From Candidatus Multivoradales bacterium (GTDB lineage: Bacteria > Acidobacteriota > Thermoanaerobaculia > Multivoradales > JAHEKO01): DNA of 64,000 bases. The notes under the pieces are model-generated. The model worked only from the letters and a program-made list of their open reading frames with translations, did no database searches and was not told the origin of the DNA. The translations under genes and the position numbers were made by a program. The number at the start of each line of letters is the position of its first letter. Position 1 is the first letter of the stretch. The stretch is from NCBI GenBank assembly GCA_965223755.1, contig CBDCXF010000001.1:1487356-1551355 (forward strand), written 5' to 3'. Shown piece by piece: positions 51,752-64,000 of this stretch.

Positions 51752-53626
51752 TTACCAGCTGTAGCCGACCCCGATGTCGACCATGTCGGCATCGTAGTCG
51801 TCGAAGTCAAACCGGACCTCGTCGTAGTCGACCGTGCGGTAGCCAAGTTGCAGCACGTAGTCGTCAAAGACTCCAACCTCGATGTAGCCGCGGAAGTCGT
51901 CCCGCTCAAGGCCGAAGGAGCCGTCGTTCTCGTACATGCGTACCTCCGCACCAAGCGTCAAGCGGTCGTTCGCCTTCACCCGACCGCGAGCGTCAAAGAA
52001 GCTCGAGTCAGCTAGGTAGCGAATGTCGAAAACGTTGGTGAGAAAGCCAGCTTCCACCGCTTGGCTGACGCTGCGCTCAGCATCGACCGCCGAGTACCCC
52101 ACCGAGAACGAGAACCGATCGTCGCTACGGCCGAGGCGCACAGCGGTGATATCGGTATCCGACACCCAGCCGGAGTCATTGTTCTCGTAATCCTTCATGG
52201 TGAGGGACCCTGATGCGGTCCATCCATCGCCGAAGCGATAACGGCCACGCACCCGGTAGCGGGAGCGGTCGGTTGGTGTGGCGAGGGTGAACGGATCGTC
52301 GAAGGAATTCTCTTCCAAATCGACGGTCAACTGGAAGGCCTTGGACGGGCGCCATGCCGCCCCGGCATAGAAGCCGGTGCGATCGGTCTTTTCGTCCTCG
52401 GTCTTGCCGTCGCTACCCAGTGACCACTCGGCGTCGACATCGCGAGATTCTTGCGCCAAACCGACGTGCAAAGTGAGCTGCGGCGAAGCGTAGAACTCGA
52501 CCCCAGCGCTGAAGCCGGTGGTGTCGATCTGCCAGTCGCCGCTGCCGAGATTGCCGGCCCAGGCAAATGTGCCATCTTGGTCGACGCTCTGTTGGCGAGC
52601 ACCAGCCACCAAGGCGACCCGGTGGGTCGCCAAATAGGTCAGCTCGATCTCAAAGCGGTCGGCATCACGATCGACCGAACCACCGCCGGTCAAGCTTTCG
52701 CTAAACGGCAGGCCGCGAAAGTCGAATCCTTGCGATTCGAGGCTGGCGCCGGCGTCCATGTCCAGACTTTGGATCAGGCCGCTGACGCGGATGTTGAGCT
52801 TGTCGTTGGGATCGGCTAGCAAACGCACCACGTGGGTGTTACTGGACAAGTCGTAGGGTTGATCGAGGAAAAAGAAGTCGAGAATTGTCGCGTCTTCAGG
52901 ATCCTCACCCAGTGAACGCCCCGGCAAGAAGATGTCGTAGGCGTTGTCGTAGTCACGGACGCGCTCCTCCAATACCAACGTCGCCTTGTCCCATGCGTAG
53001 CGAAACGCGCCGTAGTACGAGTTCATCGACTCGTGAATCGGACGATCGAGCTCAAACTCGTCACGCGAGACGTCCAGCGTTGTGGTCGATTCGCCGCGCT
53101 TGGTAAACCGATCCATGCCAAACGTCAACTGTGCCGCCTGGCTCAAGTTAATGTCGAGCTTGGCGCGATCTCGCACGCGCTCAAAATCGAAGGTGTGGAA
53201 GTCGCCGGCATTAGACTTGGTCGGATTAAACAATGCCGGTGGCAGCAGCATGTCGTAGTAGAAGTAATCGGACTTGGTGCGGTTGTACGTCAGGTTGTAT
53301 TTGCCGTACTTACGCACGCCGAAGTTGATGGCCTCAAAGGGGTCGCCGCCGAGATTGGTGACCTCGAGCCGCACCTGGTCGGCGAACTTACGGTTGCTAC
53401 CCTGGGGCACCAGGTTGAAGTGAAAATCGAACAGGCGTGGTCCGTCTTCGAGGTTGAAATCTTCTTTGAACTTACGATCGGCGCCGTCGACATCGACGCT
53501 GCGAACGCCAATCGAGAAGCCTCCGGTGAACGTTGTCTGGGACGGCTCATCGGCAGCCAGCCCGGTGACAAGCAACAAGCCGGTGGCGAGGCCAATCAGA
53601 CTTTTGATCTGTGCAGTCTTCATCAT
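51752..53626 (-). CDS. mtrB: MtrB/PioB-type outer-membrane beta-barrel
   Basis: Signal peptide; alternating beta-strand pattern; start KFKEDFNLEDG; terminal aromatic YSW; directly downstream of the decaheme gene. Confidence 0.8.
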   Translation of the reverse strand: MMKTAQIKSLIGLATGLLLVTGLAADEPSQTTFTGGFSIGVRSVDVDGADRKFKEDFNLEDGPRLFDFHFNLVPQGSNRKFADQVRLEVTNLGGDPFEAINFGVRKYGKYNLTYNRTKSDYFYYDMLLPPALFNPTKSNAGDFHTFDFERVRDRAKLDINLSQAAQLTFGMDRFTKRGESTTTLDVSRDEFELDRPIHESMNSYYGAFRYAWDKATLVLEERVRDYDNAYDIFLPGRSLGEDPEDATILDFFFLDQPYDLSSNTHVVRLLADPNDKLNIRVSGLIQSLDMDAGASLESQGFDFRGLPFSESLTGGGSVDRDADRFEIELTYLATHRVALVAGARQQSVDQDGTFAWAGNLGSGDWQIDTTGFSAGVEFYASPQLTLHVGLAQESRDVDAEWSLGSDGKTEDEKTDRTGFYAGAAWRPSKAFQLTVDLEENSFDDPFTLATPTDRSRYRVRGRYRFGDGWTASGSLTMKDYENNDSGWVSDTDITAVRLGRSDDRFSFSVGYSAVDAERSVSQAVEAGFLTNVFDIRYLADSSFFDARGRVKANDRLTLGAEVRMYENDGSFGLERDDFRGYIEVGVFDDYVLQLGYRTVDYDEVRFDFDDYDADMVDIGVGYSW

Positions 53627-53632
53627 GACCTC

Positions 53633-54559
53633 CTATTGCAAGAAGTAAGGATCGAAGTTCGATCCGTGGATTGCGGAGTGGCAGTTGACGCAGTTGGTCG
53701 TGGTGTCGAAGCGCGGCGGAGCCACCGGGCTGAAACCAGCGTGGAACTGCGGCACTTCGGCATGGCAACTGAAGCAAAGTTCGCCCCCATCTTGGTTCGC
53801 CAGCATGTGGCGATTGGGAGAGCCATGAGGTGCATGGCAAGCCGTACAACCTTCGACCATCACCGAACCGTGTTCGAACACAAACGGTCCTTCTTTGTCG
53901 GTGTGACAGCTAACGCAAGGCTCCTTGGCCGTGCTGCTCAGCATCGCCCGCTGCGCCGGAGCATGCGGATCGTGGCAAGAAGTGCATTCCAGAACGCCCT
54001 CGTGCAAGCGATGGCGTTCGTTGAACTCGAATTCGACGAACGCCTCCTGATGGCACTCGTGACACGTGGCTGACGAACCTCCAACGTTCGCCAACTTGGC
54101 CGCAGCTTCGATGCCTTGCAGCAAGGGCGGGCCGGCCGGAGTGGCACTGTGAATCGAGTGGCAGTCGCTGCACGACATGCCTGCTTGGGCGTGTGGCGAA
54201 GCAACGTAGCGGGGGTGCGAACTCTGATGACAGCTGAGGCAGGCCGCCTCGGTAGGCAGGGCGTCGTCGAAAGTGAACATGGTGCCCTCACCACCCTCTT
54301 CCTCGAGGTGCTGGGTGGCGTCGCCATGGCAAGCCTCACAGCTCACCCTGGCCGCAATTCCAGCCTCTGACAAGCTCCAGTCGGTGCCTTCAAAGATTGA
54401 GTGGGGCCCCAGTCCGGCTGCCTGAACGTACTCCTCGTGGCAGTCTCCACAGACCTGCATCGCGGTCTGCGCGCCTTCATCTTCGGTTTCGGTGGACCTC
54501 GCCAACCAAGGTGTAGCAACAGCGACTGTTGCAGCTAGGAATAAGATCTTCCACCGCAT
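53633..54559 (-). CDS. mtrA: DmsE/MtrA-type decaheme cytochrome c
   Basis: Ten CxxCH motifs (CGDCH, CEACH, CLSCH, CSDCH, CHECH, CTSCH, CVSCH, CTACH, CFSCH, CVNCH); GPFVFEH; signal peptide; RBS AGGAGG. Confidence 0.92.
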   Translation of the reverse strand: MRWKILFLAATVAVATPWLARSTETEDEGAQTAMQVCGDCHEEYVQAAGLGPHSIFEGTDWSLSEAGIAARVSCEACHGDATQHLEEEGGEGTMFTFDDALPTEAACLSCHQSSHPRYVASPHAQAGMSCSDCHSIHSATPAGPPLLQGIEAAAKLANVGGSSATCHECHQEAFVEFEFNERHRLHEGVLECTSCHDPHAPAQRAMLSSTAKEPCVSCHTDKEGPFVFEHGSVMVEGCTACHAPHGSPNRHMLANQDGGELCFSCHAEVPQFHAGFSPVAPPRFDTTTNCVNCHSAIHGSNFDPYFLQ

Positions 54560-54732
54560 TGACCTCTGACCTCCTGTTCTGAACAACACGAGGTTGCGGA
54601 TACGTCGATCGCGGGGTTGTCAGCCCCACTGACACTTAGCCCAACCTGAAGGGTATTTTAGCATGTGGTTGGCTCATTCTCGGGTAAAATTGGATTGGAG
54701 TGGACTGCTCCTCATAAATTGAAGGACTGACT

Positions 54733-55128
54733 ATGAGAACCTCCAAAGAACTTACTCCTGCCTTGTTTCTGGCTGGATGTTGCGCGGCACTCGTGTTCGT
54801 GCTCGCCTCGGCAGTCGGTGCCGAAGAAACAAGCGGCGATGAGGCCGAACAACTCTTCGTCGAAACCTACAAATGCGTGCGTTGCCATGGGGTGGCGAGC
54901 GCCGGTTTGGAAGCTACTTCAGAAAAGATGAAGAGCACTGACCTTGGCGGCTACACCAGCGACGATATGGCCACCTTGACCAAGTTCTTGCGCAAAGAAG
55001 AACTCAAAGAAGACGGCACCAAACACAAGAAGACTTTTGACGGCAGCGACGAAGATCTAGCGACGATTCTGGATTGGCTAGGTACTCTGGAAGCCAGTTC
55101 GTTGGAATCCGCTCCGGAGGATGGGTAA
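54733..55128 (+). CDS. Periplasmic monoheme cytochrome c
   Basis: Signal peptide; single CVRCH; RBS GAAGGA. Confidence 0.85.
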   Translation: MRTSKELTPALFLAGCCAALVFVLASAVGAEETSGDEAEQLFVETYKCVRCHGVASAGLEATSEKMKSTDLGGYTSDDMATLTKFLRKEELKEDGTKHKKTFDGSDEDLATILDWLGTLEASSLESAPEDG

Positions 55129-55137
55129 GGAGGTCCG

Positions 55138-55740
55138 ATGAACCTGCTTTTCCTGTTGGGCGCGGTCGCCGGCTTGGCCGCGCTCGGCCTGGCGCTGACC
55201 CCTAACTTCTCCGTCGGACGGCGCGGAGCGATCCTCGGCTTTCTAGCCTTGTTTGCGCTCCCGCTCTTGGTCACCGCCCTCAACGCCAACGTTCATTTGG
55301 AACACTCCAAGTCGACCGACTTTTGCCTCTCATGCCACGAGATGGACGACTACGGCAAGAGCATGTTGATTGATGACAGCGAGTATCTGCCCGCGGTGCA
55401 TTACCAGAATCATCTAGTTGATCCGGATCACGCCTGCTACACCTGCCACACCACCTACACCATGTACGGCGACATCGACGCCAAGATGAAGGGCGTGATG
55501 CACGTATGGGTGCACTATTTCGGGAAAGCACCGGACGAAATTAAACTCTACGACCCCTATAACTCGCGCGAATGTCTCCACTGCCATCAAGGTGCGCGTT
55601 CGTATGAGGAAGGGGAAGACCACATCGACGAAGCCGAAGCTATCGCCTCAGGTGAAACCAGCTGTCTGGACTGTCATGATCTGGTTCATGACGTGGACGA
55701 GATCGACAACTTCGACCTGTGGCAGGAGGGGGCGCGATGA
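55138..55740 (+). CDS. NapC/NirT (CymA-like) membrane tetraheme cytochrome c
   Basis: N-terminal TM segments; STDFCLSCHEM, CYTCH, CLHCH, CLDCH. Confidence 0.88.
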   Translation: MNLLFLLGAVAGLAALGLALTPNFSVGRRGAILGFLALFALPLLVTALNANVHLEHSKSTDFCLSCHEMDDYGKSMLIDDSEYLPAVHYQNHLVDPDHACYTCHTTYTMYGDIDAKMKGVMHVWVHYFGKAPDEIKLYDPYNSRECLHCHQGARSYEEGEDHIDEAEAIASGETSCLDCHDLVHDVDEIDNFDLWQEGAR

Positions 55741-55940
55741 GCTTAAAGCAAGGTGCCGTGTTGTCACCGAAGGGCGCCAAAATCGTGCGCGCCTCGGCAA
55801 TCCTCATTGCCATCGGAATCCTGGTGCAAATGATGACTTTGAGCTGGGCCAAGCCGACCGGTTTCTTGGTCTTCGCGTTGGTCGGCGCGGGGCTGGTCGC
55901 GTTGGGCGTGCTGGGGTTCCTCTGGTCGCGCTTCGTTTAG
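55737..55940 (+). CDS. Small 2-TM membrane protein coupled to the NapC/NirT gene
   Basis: ATGA overlap; GGAGG RBS; 67 aa with two hydrophobic segments. Confidence 0.6.
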   Translation: MSLKQGAVLSPKGAKIVRASAILIAIGILVQMMTLSWAKPTGFLVFALVGAGLVALGVLGFLWSRFV

Positions 55941-55996
55941 TTCAGCGACGGCAGCGATTACAGACCGCGGCGCTCCTTGCGACCGCGTCGCTTTGC

Positions 55997-57805
55997 ATGC
56001 TGACTCCTCTTACCGCCGAGGAAGGGTCTCCAGTCCAGGTTCGTTCTCAGCTACCGCCGATACCGACTTGGCCGGGCGAGACTCGCAGCCTCATCGCCGA
56101 CGCAGCTGACCCTTGGGTCACTCCCGCTGAAGCTTCCGGCCTTACGCGCACGCCGCGCTATGCGGAGACCGTCTCGTTTGCGCGCCGGCTGGCGGAGGCG
56201 GCACCTGAGGTGTCGATGGTGTCCCTCGGCCAGAGCGACGAGCGGCGCGACATCTGGATGTTGGTCGCGGCCGGCGGAGCATCCACGCCCGAGGAAGTGC
56301 GAACCAACGGGCGTCCCACGGTCCTGATCCAAGCGGGAATCCACGCCGGCGAGATCGACGGCAAAGACGCAGGCTTGATGCTGCTGCGCGACCTGACGGT
56401 CGGGGGTAAGGATCCCGAAGAGCTGCTGCATAGAGTGAACTTCCTGTTTATCCCGATCTTGTCGGTAGATGGACACGAGCGCTTCTCACCCACCAACCGC
56501 TTCAACCAGCGCGGCCCGGAGGCCATGGGATGGCGCACCAACCGCCGCAACCGCAACCTCAACCGCGACTACGCCAAGCTCGATACTGCGGAGATTCGGG
56601 CGGTGGTTGCGGCCATCAATTCTTACCAGCCCGACCTCTACGTCGACGTTCATGTCACCAACGGCGAGGACTATCAGTACGACATCACGTACGGCTGGAA
56701 CTTCGGAGGATGGTCGCCGGCGATTCGCTCCTGGCTCGACGACCGCCTCCGGCCGTTCGTCGACAGTGAACTGGGCACGGCCGGACACATTCCAGGCCCA
56801 CTGGTGCTCTCGGTCAACCACCGCGACCTGTCCGACGGCTTCTGGGGTTGGTCCGCTGGGCCGCGCTTTTCCAACGGATATGGCGATGCTCGGCACTTAC
56901 CCACGATCTTGGTCGAAAACCACTCGCTCAAGCCCTACGACCAGCGCGTGCTCGGCACTTACGTGTTTCTCCGCAGCGTCCTGCGCCTGTTGGCCGAAGA
57001 CATCGAAACTTTGCGGACCGCCGTTGCGTCCGACAGTGAGCGGCGCATGCCAGAGGTTCCCCTGGCATTCGGGCCCGGACCCGACTCTGCAGTGGAACTG
57101 GACTTCGCCGCCATCAAATCGCGGACCCGTCACTCTGAGGTCACCGGAAGCGAAACCATCGACTGGCTAGGCACCGGCGAGATCCAAAAGGTCAAACGTA
57201 TCGACATGGATCAGCCACTCTTTCCGATCGTTCGACCCGCCGCCTACTACATTCCAGCGGCCTGGGCCGACGTCGCCAGTCGGTTGCGGCATCACGGAGT
57301 CGAACTTGAAGAGATTCAAGAGCCCTTGACGGTCGACGTCGAAATGTACCGTCTTCCGGAAGCCCGGTTGGCAGACGACGCAAGCCCGTCCCTGGTCGGG
57401 GCGACCAACCCGTTCGAGGGTCACGCTCGCGTCGATCCTGGAAGGCCGAAGATCGAAGCCCACCGGCGCACCTTCACTCCGGGATCATTCAAAGTGTCGA
57501 CCGACCAACTTCTGGGCGACTTGGCGGTGCTCCTGCTCGAACCGCAGGCGCCCGACTCGTTTTTTCAGTGGGGTTTCTTTCTCGAGATCCTCAACCGCAC
57601 TGAGTACTACGACGATGACGCCATGGAGGCCACCGCCGCCCAGATGCTTACTGCCGACCCCGACCTCAAACGAGCTTTCGAGGCCAAGCTCGCCGAAGAC
57701 GCGGAGTTTGCAGCCGATCCAAATGCGCGGCTGATGTGGTTCTACCGCCAGACCCCGTACTACGATGCGGAGTACCTGCTCTACCCGGTGGCTAGGTCAC
57801 ACTGA
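55997..57805 (+). CDS. M14 family zinc carboxypeptidase (start uncertain, probably slightly upstream)
   Basis: IHAGEIDG, DGHER, NRNLNRDY, DVHVTNG; signal-peptide-like stretch in frame upstream of ATG 55997. Confidence 0.85.
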   Translation: MLTPLTAEEGSPVQVRSQLPPIPTWPGETRSLIADAADPWVTPAEASGLTRTPRYAETVSFARRLAEAAPEVSMVSLGQSDERRDIWMLVAAGGASTPEEVRTNGRPTVLIQAGIHAGEIDGKDAGLMLLRDLTVGGKDPEELLHRVNFLFIPILSVDGHERFSPTNRFNQRGPEAMGWRTNRRNRNLNRDYAKLDTAEIRAVVAAINSYQPDLYVDVHVTNGEDYQYDITYGWNFGGWSPAIRSWLDDRLRPFVDSELGTAGHIPGPLVLSVNHRDLSDGFWGWSAGPRFSNGYGDARHLPTILVENHSLKPYDQRVLGTYVFLRSVLRLLAEDIETLRTAVASDSERRMPEVPLAFGPGPDSAVELDFAAIKSRTRHSEVTGSETIDWLGTGEIQKVKRIDMDQPLFPIVRPAAYYIPAAWADVASRLRHHGVELEEIQEPLTVDVEMYRLPEARLADDASPSLVGATNPFEGHARVDPGRPKIEAHRRTFTPGSFKVSTDQLLGDLAVLLLEPQAPDSFFQWGFFLEILNRTEYYDDDAMEATAAQMLTADPDLKRAFEAKLAEDAEFAADPNARLMWFYRQTPYYDAEYLLYPVARSH

Positions 57806-57811
57806 CCCTGC

Positions 57812-57910
57812 ATCCGCCTGAGGCGGATCGAGTTGCGGCGAAGTGGAATAACGCCACTACGGTGGTCCGCAATAAGATCCGCGAACCACCGTGGACCGCT
57901 AGCGCGGTCG
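57812..57910. terminator. Stacked hairpins between convergent genes
   Basis: ATCCGCC-TGA-GGCGGAT (57812-57828), ACGGTGGT...ACCACCGT, GACCGC-TAGC-GCGGTC. Confidence 0.5.
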
Positions 57911-57921
57911 CAAGGTCGCTC

Positions 57922-58395
57922 TTACCAGAAGATCACCACCAGGATGCAGATCAGGACCGGGATGGTGATGATCACCGTAATCCAGCGGCAGACCCAACGC
58001 AGCACCCAGACGCAGACCCACTTGATGCAGCAGACGATAAACCCGAACCAAGTCCACGGGTTGATCCAGATGATGCGCCGCCAGCACACGATGATCGCGA
58101 GCGGCTGGCGCACCCAGGTCCTTCTGCAGACCAGCCTCACCACCACATAGGTGATGAAACCGATCCAGCAACAAAGTAGGATTCTCCCTCCCCAAAGAAG
58201 CGACGGATAGCGAAACAGAAGAGGCAGGGCCAAGCCCTCTCCCGAGGCGAGCGCGCCAAAAAGGCTGTTGAAAGCGTGCGCCACCAAGTTGTAGGTGACT
58301 GCGATCGCTCCCAAGCCCTCTAGCGCGTGGGCAAAGTCATCAAAGACCCGAGCATTGGGGTTGCGCGCGACATCCGCGCTTTGTTGTTCGCTCAC
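57922..58395 (-). CDS. Orphan 157-aa Trp/Cys-rich hydrophobic protein with a symmetric Cys ladder
   Basis: RBS AAAGGAGG about 5 nt before GTG 58395; 9 Cys and 12 Trp, almost all after residue 67; downstream hairpins. Confidence 0.7.
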   Translation of the reverse strand: MSEQQSADVARNPNARVFDDFAHALEGLGAIAVTYNLVAHAFNSLFGALASGEGLALPLLFRYPSLLWGGRILLCCWIGFITYVVVRLVCRRTWVRQPLAIIVCWRRIIWINPWTWFGFIVCCIKWVCVWVLRWVCRWITVIITIPVLICILVVIFW

Positions 58396-58850
58396 GAACA
58401 CCTCCTTTGGGTTCGGCTCTGCCCGGCGGGGGCCGCCGCGACCGAGCCAATTGTCGTCGTAAGACCAGCTCAGTGTAAGTGTTTTGCATAGAGAGCGCAA
58501 AACAACCCGCCCGTGCAGCACTCAAAAAGATCCGAAAGATCGGTGGATCACCGCTACGGAAGAAGGCCTGATCCGCATTTTCGGCTTCAAATTAATGCGG
58601 ATCCCCACCCCACTCCCCTACCCCCGCGGGGATGACTAACTAATCCCCGTTGGTGACCCCGAGCGACCTACTTGCTTTGGTACTCCTGGGCGGAGGCAAC
58701 CCCGCATCCGCCGCCTTCAGAGGCATCCCCACAAGCACCTGGCAAGCCGCGAGCAGGTCACTCGGGACTGGGTGCGCAGTGGGGCTGAGGTGGGCGCCTA
58801 CGGTGCGAAGTAGTCATTGCGCCCACCGCCCTCTTGAGCGGCGGATTTAG

Positions 58851-60233
58851 CTAATGGTTCGGTTCGCGCTCCAGCCGTCGACCTCGTCCCACCGTCCCCA
58901 CGAACTCGCCATCCCGTACCGCAACTTCCCCGCGCACGGTCACTGCGCTCGGTCGTCCCTTGATCTCCCAGCCTTCAAAGGCGCTGTAGTCGGTGTTGAT
59001 GGTGTGGGTCGAGGCTGAAATCTCACCGCGGTAATCGGGATCATAGACCACCAGGTCGGCGTCGGCCCCCGGCTGGATCGTGCCTTTACGCGGGTAGAGG
59101 CCGAAAATCTTGGCCGCCTGCGTGGAAGCGCAGTCGACGAAGGTCTGGAGGTCGAGGCGCCCATTGGCGACGCCCCGGGTATAGAGCAGGTTGACTCGGT
59201 CCTCGAGGGCTGGAATGCCGTTGGGGATCAAAGTGAAGTCGTCCTTGCCCATGGTTTTCTGATCGGCGAAATCGAAAGGAGCGTGGTCGGTCGCCAAGGT
59301 ACTGATGAAGCGCTGGCGCAGGCCATTCCACAGCACTTCCTGATTGGAGCGATCGCGTAGCGGCGGCGACATGACGTACTTGGCGCCTTCGAAGTCGGGG
59401 CGCTCAGCGTAGGTCATGTCGAGCAACAAATATTGAATCAATGTCTCCACCCACACGCTGACGCCGCGATCCTTGGCCCGCATCGCCGCCGCCAGAGCTT
59501 CAAGACAACTCAAGTGCACCACGTAGACGTGGGCGTCGTGGAGTTCGGCGAAGGTCATCAAGTGCTGGGTTCCCTCAGCCTCGATCAGGGGCGGGCGCGA
59601 ATGGTAGTGCCATTCCGGACCGTTTTTGCCCTGAGCAATCAGTTCCTTTTGCAGCTCGAGGACGGCATCTGCATTCTCACAATGGGCCGCGGTGATGACG
59701 CCGAGTTCCTTGGCCAGTTTGAGCGTGTGGTAAAGCTCCTCATCCGGAACCCCGAAGGCGCCTTTGTAGGCGAGAAAGACTTTGAATGACGACACGCCCT
59801 CCTTTTCGACGATGTGCCGCAGTTGTTCCGCCGCACTGTCGTCAAAGCGGGTCACCGCCATGTGGTAAGTGAAATCGCACGCCGACTTGCCCCTGCTTTG
59901 GCTCTCCCAAGTGACAAAGGCATCGCGCGGTTGTTCATCGCGGCTGGGAATGCAGAAATCAATGAAGCAGGTCGTACCGCCAATGAGCGCTGCGATGCTC
60001 GCCGTCTCGTAAGTATCCTTCGAGAAAGTGCCCATGAACGGCAGGTAGATGTGGGTGTGCGGATCGATGAAGCCTGGGAAGACGTACTTGCCGCTGGCGT
60101 CGATGACTTCCGCGTCGGGTGCCGCCTCCAAGTCGGGGCCGATGCGCGTGATGGTTTCGCCTTCGCAGTAGATGTCGGCGTGGTAGCGCTCGCTGGCGGT
60201 GACCACCTCTCCGTTTTTGATCAATAGGGCCAT
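58851..60233 (-). CDS. hydA: Dihydropyrimidinase (D-hydantoinase)
   Basis: PGFIDPHTHI, SSFKVFLAYK, AHCEN, YVVHLS, YVMSPPLR, ATDHAPF, IPNGIP; RBS AGGAGG. Confidence 0.93.
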   Translation of the reverse strand: MALLIKNGEVVTASERYHADIYCEGETITRIGPDLEAAPDAEVIDASGKYVFPGFIDPHTHIYLPFMGTFSKDTYETASIAALIGGTTCFIDFCIPSRDEQPRDAFVTWESQSRGKSACDFTYHMAVTRFDDSAAEQLRHIVEKEGVSSFKVFLAYKGAFGVPDEELYHTLKLAKELGVITAAHCENADAVLELQKELIAQGKNGPEWHYHSRPPLIEAEGTQHLMTFAELHDAHVYVVHLSCLEALAAAMRAKDRGVSVWVETLIQYLLLDMTYAERPDFEGAKYVMSPPLRDRSNQEVLWNGLRQRFISTLATDHAPFDFADQKTMGKDDFTLIPNGIPALEDRVNLLYTRGVANGRLDLQTFVDCASTQAAKIFGLYPRKGTIQPGADADLVVYDPDYRGEISASTHTINTDYSAFEGWEIKGRPSAVTVRGEVAVRDGEFVGTVGRGRRLEREPNH

Positions 60234-60453
60234 CGATTGTGCCTCCTGGTCAGGATGATTCGCGTCGCTTCGCAAGCGACGCCACAGGCTGCGCGCAGTT
60301 GGGCTCGGAAGTCTCGCTGCAAGCGCTCTGGAAGTTGTTCAAAGTCTTGGCAGATCGGCATGCAGCAGCGCGAAGGCGAGTCGTCATTTCGAAAGTCCAA
60401 TCACGACAAGCCGTCTTCTGGGTCCAACTGCGTTTGCCACCTACTATCCGTTG

Positions 60454-61962
60454 CTAGTCCCGATGCCAGACATCGCCCTCTCCCGGTGCGTGCCAACGTG
60501 AGGTAACGACCTTCTGGCGCGTGTAGAACTGCACCCCTTCCCGACCCTGCATGTGAAGGTCGCCGAAAAACGAGTAGTCCCAACCGCTAAACGGGAAGTA
60601 GGCCAGTGGCGCCGGCACACCAACATTGATGCCGATCATTCCCGCCTTGACCCGATGCGAAAACTCGCGCGCGGCCTTTCCGGAATCCGTGTAAAGACAG
60701 GCTCCGTTGCCGTAAGCCTGCTTATTGGCGGCCTCGATTGCGGAGTCGAGGTCGTCAAACCGCATGACATTGAGAACCGGGCCGAAGATCTCTTCGTGGC
60801 AGATCTGCATGTCATCACGCACGTGGTCGAGAATCGTCGCGCCTAAGTAAAAGCCATCGTGGCCGTTGACGTTAGGATTGCGCCCGTCCACGCGCACCTC
60901 GGCACCCTCGTTGGCGCCGACCTCGATCAACCCATGGATACGCTCGAGGTGTTCTCTGGTGATCACCGCCCCCATCGCGGCACTGGGATCGCGATCGGTG
61001 GCGCCAACCTTGATTTGCGCCGCCTGTTCGGAGAGTGGTGCGAGGAAGGGTTCGGCCACGTCTCCGACGACCACGGCGGTCGACGCAGCCATGCAGCGCT
61101 GGCCCGCACAGCCGAATGCGCCGTCGATCATTCCTTCGACCGCCTTGGGGATATTGGCGTCCGGCAAGACGAAGACGAAGTTCTTGGCTCCGCCGGCCGC
61201 CTGTACACGCTTGCCATTGGCGGTGCCGGTTTCGTAGATGTACTTGGCTACTTTTGACGAGCCGACGAAGGAAATCGCGCGCACTTTGGGATGGGTCAGC
61301 AACGCGTCGACGCACTCGCGGCCGCCGTGGACAATGTTGAGCACTCCTGACGGCAATCCCGCCTCGATCAGCAGCTCGATCAATCGGTTGCCGGTCAACG
61401 GCACTTTCTCGCTCGGTTTGAGAACAAAGGTATTACCGCAGGCGATGGCCAATGGATACATCCACATCGGGACCAAGGCCGGGAAGTTGTAGGGGCAGAT
61501 GCCGACGCAAACGCCTACTGGCTGGCGAATGGTCGTGCAATCAATGCCCGTGGCGATGTTCTCCAAGCTTTCGCCCTTGAGCAGCTCCGGCGCTCCACAG
61601 GCGTACTCGACCACCTCGATTCCGCGGCGTACGTCGCCACGCGCTTCGGTCAGGGTCTTGCCGTGCTCGCGGGTCACCAGTTGGGCCAGTTCCTCGAAAT
61701 GGTCTTCGAGCAGCATCTTGTAGCGGAACAGGACCCGGGCGCGCTCGATCGGAGGCGTCTCCATCCAGCCCGGAAAGGCCCGTTCGGCTGCGTCAACCGC
61801 GGCCTCGACTTCGGCGGCGCCGCACATCGGCGCCTCAGCGATGATCTCGCCAGTCGATGGGTTGTGGACTGGATTGCCGGCACCTTCGATCTCCTGCCAT
61901 TGGTTGTCGATCAGGATCGGACACGGAGTCAGCGTCGTTTTTGTGGGTACTTCAGTGGTCAT
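60454..61962 (-). CDS. mmsA: CoA-acylating (methyl)malonate-semialdehyde dehydrogenase
   Basis: PYNFPA, KPSEKVP, FVGSS, GGAKN, GCAGQRCMA, EEIFGPV, GMIGINVGVPAP, FFGDLH.QG. Confidence 0.93.
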   Translation of the reverse strand: MTTEVPTKTTLTPCPILIDNQWQEIEGAGNPVHNPSTGEIIAEAPMCGAAEVEAAVDAAERAFPGWMETPPIERARVLFRYKMLLEDHFEELAQLVTREHGKTLTEARGDVRRGIEVVEYACGAPELLKGESLENIATGIDCTTIRQPVGVCVGICPYNFPALVPMWMYPLAIACGNTFVLKPSEKVPLTGNRLIELLIEAGLPSGVLNIVHGGRECVDALLTHPKVRAISFVGSSKVAKYIYETGTANGKRVQAAGGAKNFVFVLPDANIPKAVEGMIDGAFGCAGQRCMAASTAVVVGDVAEPFLAPLSEQAAQIKVGATDRDPSAAMGAVITREHLERIHGLIEVGANEGAEVRVDGRNPNVNGHDGFYLGATILDHVRDDMQICHEEIFGPVLNVMRFDDLDSAIEAANKQAYGNGACLYTDSGKAAREFSHRVKAGMIGINVGVPAPLAYFPFSGWDYSFFGDLHMQGREGVQFYTRQKVVTSRWHAPGEGDVWHRD

Positions 61963-61982
61963 GGCAGTTTTCCTCGTGTGAT

Positions 61983-63293
61983 TCAGGGATGCGCTGGAAT
62001 GGGCTCCATCTCACCCTTGTCGACTCGCTCCTGATAGGTCTTCCAATTCATCGAATCCCGGCCGTTGTCGATCGCAGTCATGGTGATGCAATCGTCCACC
62101 GGACACACCAGCGAACAAAGGTTGCAACCGACACAGTCGTCTTCGCGAACTTTGGGAATGGCCTTAAAGGGTACTCGGCCGGGACCGAGGCCATGGCCAT
62201 TGGGGTCCACCAAGTCAATGCACTGATGGGCGCCGTCCTCACAGGCGATGTAGCAGAGATTGCAGCCGATGCACTTGTCGTAGTCAATACGGGCGACCCT
62301 CTGGTAGTTGAGATTGAGACTCTCCCAGGTCGTGACATTGGCCGTCGCCCGCCCTACCAAGTCGTCGAGATTGCGAAATCCTTTGGAATCTAAGTACTCG
62401 TTGAGACCCTCGGTCATGTCGGCGACGATGCGGAAGCCGTGGTGCATGATCGCGGTGCAGACCTGCAAACTGCCCGCGCCCAAAGCCAAAAATTCGGCGG
62501 CGTCTCGCCAGGTCGAGATGCCTCCGATTCCCGAGATCGGAATGCCGACCTCGGAGTCCGCCGCACAACGCTGCACCATGTTGAGGGCGATCGGCTTGAC
62601 CGCCGGTCCGCAGTAGCCGCCGTGTGTGCTCTTGCCGTCGACCAGGGGCTCCGGGACGAAGGTATCCAGATTGACCTGAGTGATGCTCTGCACGGTGTTG
62701 ATCATCGAGATCGCGTCCGCGCCGGCGTTGACCGCGGCCCGCGCCGGGCGCGTGATGTCCGTGATGTTGGGTGTGAGTTTGACGATAACCGGAATCTCGG
62801 CCACTTCCATGACCCAACCGACAATGGTCTCGATGACATCCGGGTTCTGTCCCACCGCGGACCCCATGCCGCGCTCACACATGCCGTGCGGACAGCCAAA
62901 GTTGAGCTCGACGCCATCGGAGCCGGCGTCGGTGGCTTGCTTCATGATGTCGTGCCAGTTGTCCCTGGTGTCGGTCATCAAGGACGCAATGACCGCGTGG
63001 TCCGGCCAGCGGTCTTTGACTTCACGAATCTCCCGAAAGTTGGTTTCGATGCTGCGGTCCGAGATCAGCTCGATGTTGTTGAAGCCGACCATGCGCTCGG
63101 GCCCCAGATTCAGCGCCGAGTAGCGGGAAGAGACGTTGACGATCGGCTCACCGATAGTCTTCCACACCACGCCGCCCCAGCCGGCCTCGAAGGCGCGGTG
63201 CGCTTGATAAGCGGTGTTGGAAGGCGGACCGGAAGCCACCCAAAAGGGATTCGGCGACCGAATGCCGGCGAAGTTGGTTTGAAGATCAGCCAT
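61983..63293 (-). CDS. preA: NAD-dependent dihydropyrimidine dehydrogenase subunit PreA
   Basis: SPNPFWVASGPP, NNIELISDR, ELNFGCPHGMCERGMG, KLTPNITD, GGYCGPAVKPIAL; C-terminal CIGCNLC and CVGCNLC ferredoxin motifs. Confidence 0.95.
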   Translation of the reverse strand: MADLQTNFAGIRSPNPFWVASGPPSNTAYQAHRAFEAGWGGVVWKTIGEPIVNVSSRYSALNLGPERMVGFNNIELISDRSIETNFREIREVKDRWPDHAVIASLMTDTRDNWHDIMKQATDAGSDGVELNFGCPHGMCERGMGSAVGQNPDVIETIVGWVMEVAEIPVIVKLTPNITDITRPARAAVNAGADAISMINTVQSITQVNLDTFVPEPLVDGKSTHGGYCGPAVKPIALNMVQRCAADSEVGIPISGIGGISTWRDAAEFLALGAGSLQVCTAIMHHGFRIVADMTEGLNEYLDSKGFRNLDDLVGRATANVTTWESLNLNYQRVARIDYDKCIGCNLCYIACEDGAHQCIDLVDPNGHGLGPGRVPFKAIPKVREDDCVGCNLCSLVCPVDDCITMTAIDNGRDSMNWKTYQERVDKGEMEPIPAHP

Positions 63294-64000
63294 CGGCATC
63301 TCCCTGTTGTGCTCCCCGACCGGCGTAGTACTCGCGTTCGAGGGCCGGCACCCGCACCGGTCGATGGAATCCGGCGCCAAAGTCCTGTTCCGCTCCCAGG
63401 CGACTCTTTTGCCGCAAGCCGCCGAAATCCTCCGCAGTGAACTGGGCATGAATGGCGTGCGCGGCGCGCTTGCCTTCGGCCACCGCATCGACGACCTCGG
63501 AGCCGCCGTTGGCGGCGTCCCCGCCGGCGTAGACCCGAGCTGCAGCCGTCGCCCCGGTGGCGAAATCCCGCTCGATTTCGCCGCGTTTTGAGAACTCGAC
63601 CTCCGGGAAGATGCGCTGCACTGCCTGCTGCATACGCTGTTGACCGAGGGCCTTGATGACCATGTCGAACTCCATGTCGACGGCGTTGTCGATATCCGTC
63701 TCGATCCTGCCGTCGGAGCCGACAACGGTCGGGGCCACCCGCAGTCCGGTCACGCGCTCGTCCCCAAGCACCTCGATCGGCTGGCTGAAAAAGTGGAACT
63801 CCGCACCGTCCCGCTTGGCCAATTCGTACTCGAATTCGTAGGCGGGCATCGACTCGGGGCCGCGACGGTAGATCACCGCCGCCGCCTCAGCCCCCAGCCG
63901 TTTGGACTGAGTCACCGCGTCGATGGCGGTGTTGCCGCAGCCGATCACCGCCACCCGGCGACCGACCGCCACCTCATGCAAAGGTCGAGTGCGAACCTCT
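63286..64000 (-). CDS. preT: Dihydropyrimidine dehydrogenase subunit PreT, 5'-truncated by the window
   Basis: VAVIGCGNTAIDA, YRRG...MPAY..E, KALGQ, YAGGDAANGG.EVV.AVAEGKRAA; overlaps the preA start. Confidence 0.9.
   Translation of the reverse strand, partial: EVRTRPLHEVAVGRRVAVIGCGNTAIDAVTQSKRLGAEAAAVIYRRGPESMPAYEFEYELAKRDGAEFHFFSQPIEVLGDERVTGLRVAPTVVGSDGRIETDIDNAVDMEFDMVIKALGQQRMQQAVQRIFPEVEFSKRGEIERDFATGATAAARVYAGGDAANGGSEVVDAVAEGKRAAHAIHAQFTAEDFGGLRQKSRLGAEQDFGAGFHRPVRVPALEREYYAGRGAQQGDADG

What the first reader, a model, noticed from the sequence alone, without database searches (positions are those of the whole stretch)
57922..58395. Orphan Trp/Cys-rich protein whose cysteines form an exactly symmetric 14-residue ladder around a central turn
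Seen: with start GTG 58395 (strong AAAGGAGG RBS) the 157-aa product has a plain 70-aa N-terminal part ending LLWGG. An 87-aa Trp/Val/Ile/Arg/Cys-rich segment follows. Cys lie at 75, 76, 90, 104, 122, 123, 128, 136 and 150. C76/C90/C104 and C122/C136/C150 are each spaced exactly 14 apart. C104+C122, C90+C136 and C76+C150 all sum to 226, so they mirror around the I-N-P-W turn, and W110/W116 mirror on the same axis. Inference: a long antiparallel hairpin (about 37 residues per arm) clamped by three disulfide rungs, with C75, C123 and C128 spare for inter-subunit links. Arg/Trp/Cys hairpins recall membrane-active peptides of the protegrin/tachyplesin type and the stems of pore-forming proteins. 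The GG at 69-70 could be a processing site, but it lacks the canonical ELxxIxGG double-glycine leader. No modifying enzyme or exporter is adjacent. I recognise no family for it.
Basis: partly seen in the sequence, partly recalled or inferred. Interest (0 to 1): 0.8.

Follow-up and report, generated by a model that had tools for sequence, protein, structure and literature searches.

The report
Cysteine-zipped helical-hairpin membrane protein family
The ORF is a real gene for a small membrane protein of a rare, uncatalogued bacterial family in which six conserved cysteines face each other pairwise across a long helix-turn-helix, so it is not a beta-hairpin antimicrobial peptide, and what it does is still unknown.

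Summary
The Cys positions are exactly as reported. The ORF is not an orphan. An exhaustive HMMER search found about 25 true distant homologues, and loci and cluster look-ups bring the total to about 40 sequences from soil and sediment metagenomes and from Sphingomonadales and Anaerolineales MAGs.

The family signature is C-x14-C-x13-C-x17-C-x13-C-x13-C. The two inner mirrored pairs (90/136, 104/122) and W110/W116 are conserved exactly. The conserved outer partner of C150 is C75, not C76. C76, C123 and C128 are private to this protein.

AlphaFold2 models of two members are confident (pLDDT 86 and 80) and all-helical: an N-terminal helix, TM1, a Trp-rich turn and TM2. There is no beta-hairpin. 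The cationic Arg/Trp character and the GG are not family traits.

Four results support direct pairing across an antiparallel helical hairpin:
- a compensated one-turn shift of both outer Cys in one member;
- turn deletions of 7-8 residues;
- mirrored Glu/Lys pairs;
- dN/dS of 0.10.

Charge statistics suggest the hairpin is cytoplasmic. Pfam, NCBIfam, PHROGs, PADLOC, PDB and BFVD give no match. There is no conserved neighbour gene, and a close relative lacks the gene. Function is unknown and no expression data exist.

The parts
57922..58395 (-). CDS of 157 aa plus stop, with a GTG start at 58393-58395
   Evidence: Translation. In-frame GC3 is 0.78. The N-terminus aligns with the starts of homologues, for example P0039 MSQSEK.... 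Homologues appear.
58401..58408 (-). Shine-Dalgarno sequence AAAGGAGG, five nt upstream of the GTG
   Evidence: Read directly from the sequence.
58249..58359 (-). Residues 13-49: a long N-terminal helix H0. Its C-terminal half (about 28-49) is a probable first membrane span. It holds the conserved motif ALEGLGA..TYNL.AHAFNS.
   Evidence: AF2 helix 13-49. The best 19-residue hydropathy window is 1.25 here, the family median is 1.65, and 16 of 29 members reach 1.6 or more. Conservation with P0039, P0002 and P0034 is shown.
58189..58248 (-). Residues 50-69: variable linker (loop1), poor in Lys/Arg and probably extracytoplasmic. It contains the non-conserved GG at 69-70.
   Evidence: K+R density is 0.036 per residue, against 0.134 for the N-tail and 0.131 for the hairpin. 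Extra Cys occur here as 0 (23 members) or 2 (7 members). The GG columns are not conserved.
58126..58188 (-). Residues 70-90: TM1, also the membrane part of hairpin arm A. It holds the conserved C75 (58171-58173), the private C76 (58168-58170) and the conserved C90 (58126-58128).
   Evidence: AF2 helix 70-90. Hydropathy reaches 2.3. Column counts: C75 in 30 of 31, C90 in 33 of 33.
58069..58125 (-). Residues 91-109: arm A outside the membrane. It is Arg-rich here and Glu-rich in most members. W94, C104 (58084-58086) and W105 are conserved.
   Evidence: AF2 predicts short helices at 93-96 and 101-106.
58048..58068 (-). Residues 110-116: the turn W-I-N-P-W-T-W (family consensus W-Y-N-P-W-S-W), which is the mirror axis
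   Evidence: Column counts: W110 32/32, N112 30/33, P113 32/33, W116 33/33. AF2 shows a non-helical stretch at 107-112.
57982..58047 (-). Residues 117-138: arm B, an amphipathic helix. C122 (58030-58032) and C136 (57988-57990) are conserved. C123 and C128 are private.
   Evidence: AF2 helix 113-137. C122 and C136 are present in 34 of 34 sequences. On a helical wheel the Cys lie inside the Lys-rich arc.
57925..57981 (-). Residues 139-157: TM2, with the conserved C150 (57946-57948). The protein ends in the membrane.
   Evidence: AF2 helix 139-156. Hydropathy reaches 3.0. C150 is present in 33 of 34 sequences.
57859..57892 (.). A 12-bp inverted repeat between the convergent stop codons of this gene and the M14 peptidase gene. 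It may be a bidirectional terminator hairpin, but it has no T-run.
   Evidence: the repeat finder pair I3, 92% complementary. The consensus terminator scan did not call it.
57787..58850 (.). A 1064-bp stretch holding the gene, its 455-nt upstream spacer and the downstream spacer. A related genome in the same study has 113 unrelated nt here instead.
   Evidence: read laying joint 57786 to 58851 in a contig of run X4 whose flanks are about 84% identical to the window.

Best explanation
Window 57922-58395 (-) is a genuine gene with its own ribosome-binding site. It encodes a small integral membrane protein of a rare, undescribed family of about 145-195 aa.

The predicted protein is three long antiparallel helices:
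- an N-terminal helix whose distal half probably spans the membrane;
- a variable, probably extracytoplasmic linker;
- a helix-turn-helix of roughly 40 residues per arm, made of TM1, an acidic or (in this protein) Arg-rich arm, a W-x-N-P-W-x-W turn, an amphipathic Lys- and Trp-rich arm, and TM2.

Six conserved Cys sit one per four helical turns (14 residues, or two heptads) on the faces where the two arms meet. They form three rungs about 21 A apart: 104-122 near the tip, 90-136 at the membrane surface, and 75-150 inside the bilayer. The mirror symmetry is therefore the sequence footprint of an antiparallel alpha-helical hairpin, and the Cys pairs clamp its arms.

The positive-inside rule suggests N-in, linker out, Cys hairpin on the cytoplasmic side, C-terminus out. 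In that case the two hairpin rungs are more likely metal-bridged or redox-switchable thiol pairs than permanent disulfides. Only the 75-150 rung, near the outer face, would be a good disulfide candidate.

Shown: the gene is real, the family exists, the Cys register is conserved, and the prediction is helical. Inferred: direct Cys-Cys contact, the topology and the chemistry. The cellular role is unknown. The gene is accessory and stand-alone.
For: - Family: 27 phmmer hits among 1.84 billion representatives, 25 of them true members of similar length. More came from profile searches, loci and clusters.
- Cys register: spacings 15, 14, 18, 14, 14 in 24 of the 31 members with all six Cys positions. 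C104, C122 and C136 are invariant. C90, C150, W94, W110, P113 and W116 are conserved in at least 90%.
- Structure: AF2 on the window protein gives pLDDT 85.9 and pTM 0.71, all helical. AF2 on the typical member P0029 gives pLDDT 80.3, above 90 across the hairpin, with the same plan.
- Pairing, compensated shift: in P0023 (loci L005 and L006) the outer Cys moves 4 residues towards the N-terminus and its partner 4 towards the C-terminus. The sum stays at 225.
- Pairing, turn deletions: deletions of 7 and 8 residues (P0004, P0020) and of 1 residue (P0002, P0022, P0024, L008) leave all other spacings intact.
- Pairing, charges: opposite-charge pairs between the arms peak at mirror offset 0 (40 opposite to 11 same) and at +/-4 (47:5 and 29:3). 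E93/K133 and E97/K129 both sum to 226.
- Selection: dN/dS is 0.10 between L007 and L010.
- Topology: K+R density is 0.134 in the N-tail, 0.036 in the linker and 0.131 in the hairpin. The window hairpin has 8 K/R and no D/E. Extra linker Cys occur only in twos.
- Accessory status: unrelated neighbours in nine lineages, and a related genome lacks the locus.
Against: - No model coordinates were available, so S-S distances were not measured. The pairing rests on sequence logic.
- AF2 breaks arm A into short helices around P98, so arm A may not be a regular helix.
- The N-terminal helix is only marginally hydrophobic in the window protein (1.25). If it does not span the membrane, the hairpin would be periplasmic and three disulfides would become plausible.
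- One rung lies within the bilayer, where neither disulfide formation nor metal binding is common.
- The charge-pair statistics are not corrected for phylogeny, and there are only about 40 sequences.
- There is no transcript, proteomic or phenotype evidence. The only public runs that hold the DNA are of unstated type.
Confidence: 0.6

Rival explanations
1. The C-terminal 87 residues form a long beta-hairpin clamped by three disulfide rungs. It is released at GG69-70 and acts as a cationic, membrane-active (protegrin- or tachyplesin-like) peptide or as a pore stem.
For: The mirrored Cys ladder is real and conserved. The window protein's hairpin is Arg/Trp/Cys-rich with no acidic residue.
Against: - Both AF2 models are entirely helical and confident across this region.
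- The GG is not conserved.
- Most members have a Glu-rich arm A and a net acidic or neutral hairpin.
- Residues 71-89 and 139-157 are classical hydrophobic membrane spans.
- No signal peptide, leader, C39-peptidase exporter or modifying enzyme occurs in any of nine genomic contexts.
Confidence: 0.03
2. The same helical hairpin with the opposite topology. The N-terminal helix does not span the membrane, the Trp-rich hairpin protrudes into the periplasm, and at least the two exposed rungs are structural disulfides made by the Dsb system. The result would be a bacterial, membrane-anchored counterpart of twin-CXnC helix-loop-helix domains.
For: - The invariance of all six Cys and their pairwise register fit cystine staples.
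- H0 hydropathy is marginal in the window protein and in about half of the members.
- Known cystine-stapled helical hairpins use the same C1-C4 and C2-C3 mirror logic (PMC5404111, PMC7191063).
Against: - The K+R distribution places the linker outside and the hairpin inside. The window hairpin carries +8 net charge.
- Paired extra Cys in the linker suggest that the linker, not the hairpin, is in the oxidising compartment.
- The 75/150 rung would then lie near the cytoplasmic leaflet.
Confidence: 0.2
3. The cysteines are ligands rather than staples. In a dimer or higher oligomer the pairs from each protomer would converge into Cys4 (or larger) layers that bind soft metals or Fe-S clusters. Alternatively they would pass a thiophilic metal or reducing equivalents stepwise across the membrane, in the way MerT/MerF or CcdA are thought to work.
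For: - Two rungs are predicted to be cytoplasmic.
- The arm-B Cys are embedded in a Lys-rich face that would favour thiolates.
- The rungs are spread from the cytoplasm to the outer leaflet.
- The window protein has vicinal CC pairs at 75-76 and 122-123.
- Many neighbouring genes are oxidoreductases. One lineage has Nramp and MgtE-domain genes 5-7 kb away.
Against: - The rungs are about 21 A apart, too far for direct hand-over or efficient electron tunnelling.
- No mer, cop, czc, isc or suf gene is adjacent in any context.
- The vicinal CC pairs are not conserved.
- No oligomer model could be computed.
- Enrichment for oxidoreductase neighbours was not tested statistically.
Confidence: 0.15
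4. A spurious ORF: a chance reading frame, or the shadow of a DNA repeat or of a gene on the other strand.
For: The composition is unusual and weak short tandem repeats are present (periods 18 and 12, scores 48-49). The word-index search found only the protein itself.
Against: - Protein-level homologues exist in different phyla with conserved motifs.
- dN/dS is 0.10.
- GC3 is 0.78-0.87 in this frame.
- The Shine-Dalgarno sequence is strong.
- No Rfam family matches the region.
- The ORFs on the opposite strand are shadows and have no independent homologues.
Confidence: 0.02

Closest known systems
Twin CX9C / CX3C (CHCH) helix-loop-helix proteins of the mitochondrial intermembrane space, and atypical relatives such as yeast Mix23 (CX14C, CX13C)
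   Same: Two antiparallel helices carry Cys at a fixed spacing on each helix, so that the outer Cys pairs with the outer and the inner with the inner (a mirror-symmetric register). Mix23 is listed with CX14C/CX13C spacings (PMC5404111), which are numerically the same as here. That these motifs form disulfide-stapled hairpins is established knowledge of the family.
   Different: The CHCH proteins are eukaryotic, soluble and oxidised by Mia40, with two rungs. Here the protein is bacterial, there are three rungs, the hairpin continues into two membrane spans with one rung inside the bilayer, and the hairpin is probably cytoplasmic. No sequence similarity was found (no Pfam hit at E<10). Whether disulfides form was not tested.
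Plant alpha-hairpinins (CX3C-Xn-CX3C antimicrobial peptides) and other cystine-stapled helical peptides
   Same: A helix-loop-helix held by two mirrored Cys pairs (PMC7191063, PMC11591084). Some members are Trp- and Arg-rich.
   Different: They are secreted peptides of about 30-40 residues with CX3C spacing (one turn) and are processed from plant precursors. Here the spacing is 14, the protein has membrane spans, and there is no signal or leader. The family as a whole is not cationic.
Protegrin / tachyplesin beta-hairpin antimicrobial peptides
   Same: A mirrored Cys ladder around a turn. The Arg/Trp/Cys-rich composition applies only to the window protein.
   Different: They are animal peptides of 17-18 residues with beta strands and Cys spaced 2-4 apart. 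Here the protein has 157 aa, is predicted helical, has a spacing of 14 and two hydrophobic membrane spans.
MerT / MerF mercury transport proteins (small 2-3-TM proteins with Cys pairs at different membrane depths)
   Same: A small inner-membrane protein with few spans, one Cys pair within the first hairpin span near the outer face and further Cys on the cytoplasmic side. The window protein even has a vicinal CC in TM1. This resemblance is recalled from general knowledge and was not tested.
   Different: No sequence similarity (no Pfam or NCBIfam hit). No mer operon is present in any context. The vicinal CC is not conserved. There are six Cys in a strict 14-residue register instead of two pairs.

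Membership tests
Beta-hairpin cationic antimicrobial peptides (protegrin/tachyplesin type) | Two antiparallel beta strands joined by a tight turn | tested here: not met
   AF2 on two family members gives only helices. pLDDT in the hairpin region is about 88-94 for the window protein and 90-95 for P0029.
Beta-hairpin cationic antimicrobial peptides (protegrin/tachyplesin type) | A short (under about 25 aa), strongly cationic mature peptide released from a precursor | tested here: not met
   The segment is 87 aa with two hydrophobic spans. The hairpin is net acidic or neutral in most members. The proposed GG cleavage site is not conserved.
Class II bacteriocins with a double-glycine leader | A conserved leader ending in GG, and an adjacent C39-peptidase ABC exporter or immunity gene | tested here: not met
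   Columns 69-70 are mostly A/C/G and E/D/G. No exporter or peptidase C39 domain occurs among the neighbours in the window or in eight other lineages.
Twin CXnC / CHCH helix-loop-helix domains | Two helices, each with a CXnC motif, arranged antiparallel so that the Cys pair in mirror order | tested here: inconclusive
   Helix-turn-helix predicted. Mirror register conserved, with a compensated double shift in P0023. No coordinates were available and Cys-Cys distances were not measured.
Twin CXnC / CHCH helix-loop-helix domains | Sequence or profile similarity to CHCH-type families | tested here: not met
   No Pfam family at E<10 for the window protein, and none shared by the 34 members at E<0.1. 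No PDB sequence or fold match.
Twin CXnC / CHCH helix-loop-helix domains | The Cys are oxidised to disulfides in an oxidising compartment | not testable with these tools
   This needs thiol trapping or a mass-spectrometric disulfide map. The charge-based topology argues that two pairs are cytoplasmic.
MerT/MerF-type thiol-pair metal transporters | Homology to MerT/MerF/MerC and a mer operon context (merR, merP, merA) | tested here: not met
   No Pfam or NCBIfam hit. No mer genes among the neighbours.
Known anti-phage defence or phage protein families | A profile match to PADLOC or PHROGs models, or presence on viral contigs | tested here: not met
   0 of 34 members match PADLOC or PHROGs at E<0.1. 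No relative was found in IMG/VR contigs. No BFVD fold match.
New family defined here (six-Cys, Trp-rich helical-hairpin membrane proteins) | C-x14-C-x13-C-x17-C-x13-C-x13-C with W94, W105, W110, N112-P113 and W116, flanked by two hydrophobic spans and preceded by an N-terminal helix | tested here: met
   The window protein keeps all six Cys and all the named Trp/Asn/Pro positions. Its N-terminal helix motif is shared with P0039, P0002 and P0034.

The most novel reading that the evidence does not exclude
The family is a new type of minimal transmembrane thiol ladder. Three pairs of cysteines are held in register by a helical hairpin. On oligomerisation they would form Cys4-6 layers running from the cytoplasm to the outer leaflet. 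The ladder would bind or relay soft metal ions (Cu(I), Cd, Hg, Zn) or redox equivalents across the inner membrane, on a scaffold unrelated to MerT, CcdA/DsbD, Ctr or P1B-ATPases.
Probability: 0.1. Interest if true: 0.8.

Novelty: new variant of a known kind. Interest (0 to 1): 0.5.

Why it matters
If the pairing is real, this is a compact bacterial membrane scaffold in which a transmembrane helical hairpin is held in register by three evenly spaced cysteine pairs, one of them inside the bilayer. That arrangement is known from soluble eukaryotic twin-CXnC proteins and from designed coiled coils. None of the libraries searched here holds a natural bacterial membrane protein with it.

It defines a small family with no Pfam, NCBIfam, PHROGs, PADLOC or PDB counterpart, and it offers clear experiments on topology, thiol state and metal content. 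It is also a tidy example of how a numerical pattern in a single sequence can correctly flag a structural constraint while the first structural guess (beta rather than alpha) is wrong.

Its practical importance is limited for now. The family is rare (2 of 185,579 species representatives), it is accessory, and it has no functional context.

Tried and rejected
- Curated libraries. Pfam, NCBIfam, PADLOC and PHROGs scans of the window protein and of all 34 members gave no family. A few weak, isolated hits to unrelated membrane domains look compositional.
- Solved and predicted structures. The PDB sequence-profile search gave 0 hits at E<10. Foldseek of both models against PDB and of the first against BFVD gave nothing below E 0.8, with TM-scores of 0.34 or less normalised to the query.
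- The word-index homology search with the single sequence found only the protein itself. Only the exhaustive HMMER scan revealed the family.
- P0018 and P0027 (about 1000 aa) are tandem-repeat proteins whose scores add up over repeats, so I rejected them as spurious.
- Genome scan. The first pattern did not confirm against the divergent window protein. The second, built on a typical member, gave two true loci, plus L009 (Pseudorhizobium), which translates to nothing related and was rejected.
- Conserved operon partner. All-against-all BLASTP of the neighbours found only two weak links. An mmsA-like aldehyde dehydrogenase is shared by the window and the Sphingomonadales lineage (48% identity). 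L007, L010 and L011 are one lineage, so this is two independent occurrences. A distant S9 peptidase is shared by L001 and L010. I judged this insufficient.
- The M14 peptidase next to the gene is unrelated to the 684-aa convergent gene in L001.
- Non-coding explanations. Rfam gave no credible hit. Tandem and direct repeats are short and weak. The promoter and terminator consensus scans were uninformative.
- Expression. No RNA library could be identified among the runs holding the sequence.
- Literature. There is no paper containing the WYNPW motif.
Full report
**1. The observation**

Window 57922-58395 on the minus strand, read from GTG 58395, gives a 157-aa product. Its Cys lie at 75, 76, 90, 104, 122, 123, 128, 136 and 150, and its Trp positions include 110 and 116. 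AAAGGAGG lies five nt upstream of the GTG. Every number in the finding is correct.

In-frame GC3 is 0.78, and 0.87 over residues 71-157. Neighbouring genes have 0.61-0.77, so this frame looks coding. Only short, low-scoring DNA repeats are present, and no Rfam family fits the region.

I placed nine Cys at random in 87 positions. Two non-overlapping, equally spaced triples appeared in 0.2% of trials, and at least three mirrored pairs in 8.5%. The ladder is therefore unusual, but conservation is the real test.

**2. The ORF is not an orphan**

Pfam and NCBIfam give nothing at E<10, and the word-indexed search finds only the protein itself. The exhaustive phmmer scan of 1.84 billion representatives returns 27 hits at E<1e-3, 11 of them below 1e-10. 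Two of the 27 are long repeat proteins and are spurious. The other 25 are proteins of 65-196 aa, most of them 145-196 aa, that align over their whole length.

Profile searches, two genome or metagenome scans and cluster look-ups add more members. The closest relative is P0039, also 157 aa and 42% identical. It shares the N-terminal motif ALEGLGA..TYNL.AHAFNS.

Among 185,579 species representatives, only a Sphingomonadales MAG and an Anaerolineales MAG carry a member. The remaining members come from metagenome assemblies; the records I recognised (from memory, not checked here) are from soil and sediment. No member occurs on viral contigs. Two Sphingomonadales-lineage copies differ with dN/dS of 0.10, so the family is under purifying selection as a protein.

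**3. The Cys register is conserved, with one correction**

Cys spacings are 15, 14, 18, 14, 14 in 24 of the 31 members that carry all six Cys positions, and three further fragments keep the part of the pattern they contain. The family signature is therefore C-x14-C-x13-C-x17-C-x13-C-x13-C.

- C104, C122 and C136 are invariant.
- C90, C150, W94, W110, P113 and W116 are conserved in at least 90% of sequences.
- The conserved outermost Cys aligns with window C75 (30 of 31 sequences), not C76.
- C76, C123 and C128 are private to the window protein.

The mirror is thus exact (sum 226) for 90/136, 104/122 and W110/W116. It is off by one (sum 225) for 75/150.

The exceptions are informative. P0023 has moved the first Cys four residues towards the N-terminus and the last Cys four residues towards the C-terminus. 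This is a compensated shift of one helical turn that keeps the sum at 225. P0004 and P0020 have lost 7 and 8 residues at the turn, about one turn from each arm, without disturbing the other spacings. Four members have lost one residue at the turn.

**4. The structure is helical, not beta**

AlphaFold2 with the 34-sequence alignment gives pLDDT 85.9 and pTM 0.71 for the window protein. The predicted helices are 13-49, 70-90, 93-96, 101-106, 113-137 and 139-156, with a non-helical turn at 107-112. A typical member, P0029, gives the same plan with pLDDT above 90 across the hairpin.

Fourteen residues is four helical turns, or two heptads, so successive Cys fall on one face of a helix.

On helical wheels, C90 and C104 share a stripe with W94, V101, W105 and V108, flanked by E93 and E97. 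C122 and C136 sit in the middle of the Lys-rich arc of arm B (K118, K125, K129, K133, K137). The opposite 200 degrees of arm B is Trp, Val, Ile and Leu.

E93/K133 and E97/K129 are mirror pairs on the same axis as the Cys (both sum to 226). Across the family, opposite-charge pairs between the arms peak at mirror offset 0 (40 opposite to 11 same) and at +/-4 (47:5 and 29:3). They are disfavoured at +/-1 and +/-3. These statistics are not corrected for phylogeny.

**5. Membrane topology (inference)**

Residues 71-89 and 139-157 are strongly hydrophobic (mean Kyte-Doolittle 2.0 and 3.0). The N-terminal helix has a best 19-residue window with a family median of 1.65, and 1.25 in the window protein.

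Lys+Arg density is 0.134 per residue in the N-tail, 0.036 in the linker and 0.131 in the hairpin. The window hairpin has eight Lys/Arg and no acidic residue. By the positive-inside rule this favours N-in, linker out, hairpin in and C-terminus out.

Extra Cys in the linker occur as none (23 members) or two (7 members). The single exception is P0023's shifted ladder Cys. This is what a disulfide in an oxidising compartment would look like.

Under this topology the 104/122 and 90/136 rungs are cytoplasmic or interfacial, and the 75/150 rung lies in the outer leaflet. Three permanent disulfides are then unlikely. Metal-bridged or redox-switchable thiol pairs are more plausible for the inner rungs. 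I could not test this. The opposite topology, with a periplasmic disulfide-stapled stalk, remains a serious rival.

**6. Genomic context**

In the window the gene follows, on the same strand, three Pfam-annotated genes that look like a reductive pyrimidine-catabolism set: a DHO_dh plus 4Fe-4S protein (61983-63725), an mmsA-like aldehyde dehydrogenase (60454-61962) and a dihydropyrimidinase-like amidohydrolase (58851-60275). A 455-nt gap separates the last of these from the gene. The gene converges on an M14 carboxypeptidase.

Nine independent contexts share no neighbour. The one exception is an mmsA-like dehydrogenase directly upstream in the Sphingomonadales lineage, 48% identical to the window's. 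Many neighbours are oxidoreductases, but I did not test this for enrichment.

A contig in run X4, about 84% identical to the window in the flanks, joins window position 57786 to 58851 with 113 unrelated nt between. A close relative therefore lacks the whole 1064-bp stretch. The gene is accessory and stand-alone. One member lies about 3 kb from an IstB-like gene.

**7. Comparison with known families**

No curated or structural library recognises the family. No paper contains the turn motif.

The closest logic is that of twin-CXnC helix-loop-helix proteins, including Mix23 with CX14C/CX13C (PMC5404111), and of plant alpha-hairpinins (PMC7191063). It is not a member of either. There is no sequence similarity, there are three rungs, the arms are membrane-spanning, and the host is bacterial.

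The protegrin or bacteriocin reading fails its defining features: beta structure, small size, a conserved cationic character, and a conserved GG leader with an exporter.

**8. Verdict**

The structural interpretation has to change from a beta-hairpin peptide to a membrane-embedded alpha-helical hairpin. The function is unknown and expression is unverified. I rate it of moderate interest: a clean, rare, uncatalogued family with an unusually explicit structural signature and straightforward decisive experiments.

Noticed in passing
window 57787-58850: A contig in run X4, from the same study and about 84% identical in the flanks, joins 57786 to 58851 with 113 unrelated nt. A close relative therefore lacks the gene and its spacers. 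Run X3 also contains the variant flanks.
   Followed up: partly
window 51752-55740: A possible porin-cytochrome module. It comprises a 318-aa protein with 10 CXXCH motifs (53633-54589, -) next to a 624-aa protein with a weak outer-membrane beta-barrel hit (51752-53626, -). Also present are a mono-haem cytochrome c (54733-55128, +) and a 4-haem NapC/NirT-type protein (55138-55740, +). The arrangement resembles MtrAB/PioAB.
   Followed up: no
window 58851-63725: Three same-strand genes that look like a reductive pyrimidine-catabolism set: a DHO_dh plus 4Fe-4S protein (PreA-like), an mmsA-like aldehyde dehydrogenase and a dihydropyrimidinase-like amidohydrolase. A family member in a Sphingomonadales MAG also sits directly after an mmsA-like gene that is 48% identical (L007 4081-5583).
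   Followed up: partly
family alignment A3, linker before TM1 (for example P0003, P0005, P0010, P0014, P0016, P0021, P0022): Seven members carry exactly two additional Cys in the linker. The second is usually 6 residues before the conserved C75, and no member has just one. This suggests an extra disulfide in an extracytoplasmic loop.
   Followed up: partly
L007 6378-6827 and L010 6453-6995: Directly downstream of the family member in the Sphingomonadales lineage lies a conserved gene for an uncharacterised protein of about 149 aa. The two copies are 89% identical and have no Pfam hit. The window has no counterpart.
   Followed up: no
window 57859-57892: A 12-bp inverted repeat (92% complementary, 10-nt loop) lies between the convergent ends of the target gene and the M14 peptidase gene. 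It has no T-run on either strand.
   Followed up: no
window 55592-57805: The M14 carboxypeptidase ORF extends upstream to a GTG at 55592 and overlaps the end of the NapC/NirT gene (55138-55740). The true start is probably further downstream, since the Pfam domain begins about 95 residues after 55892.
   Followed up: no
P0001, P0004, P0020 (alignment A1/A3): A subgroup that includes the window protein has replaced the Glu/Lys-rich hairpin faces by Arg, Trp and hydrophobic residues (shared LRWVCRW). In two of the three the turn is shortened by 7-8 residues. The hairpin may be more deeply membrane-embedded in this subgroup.
   Followed up: partly
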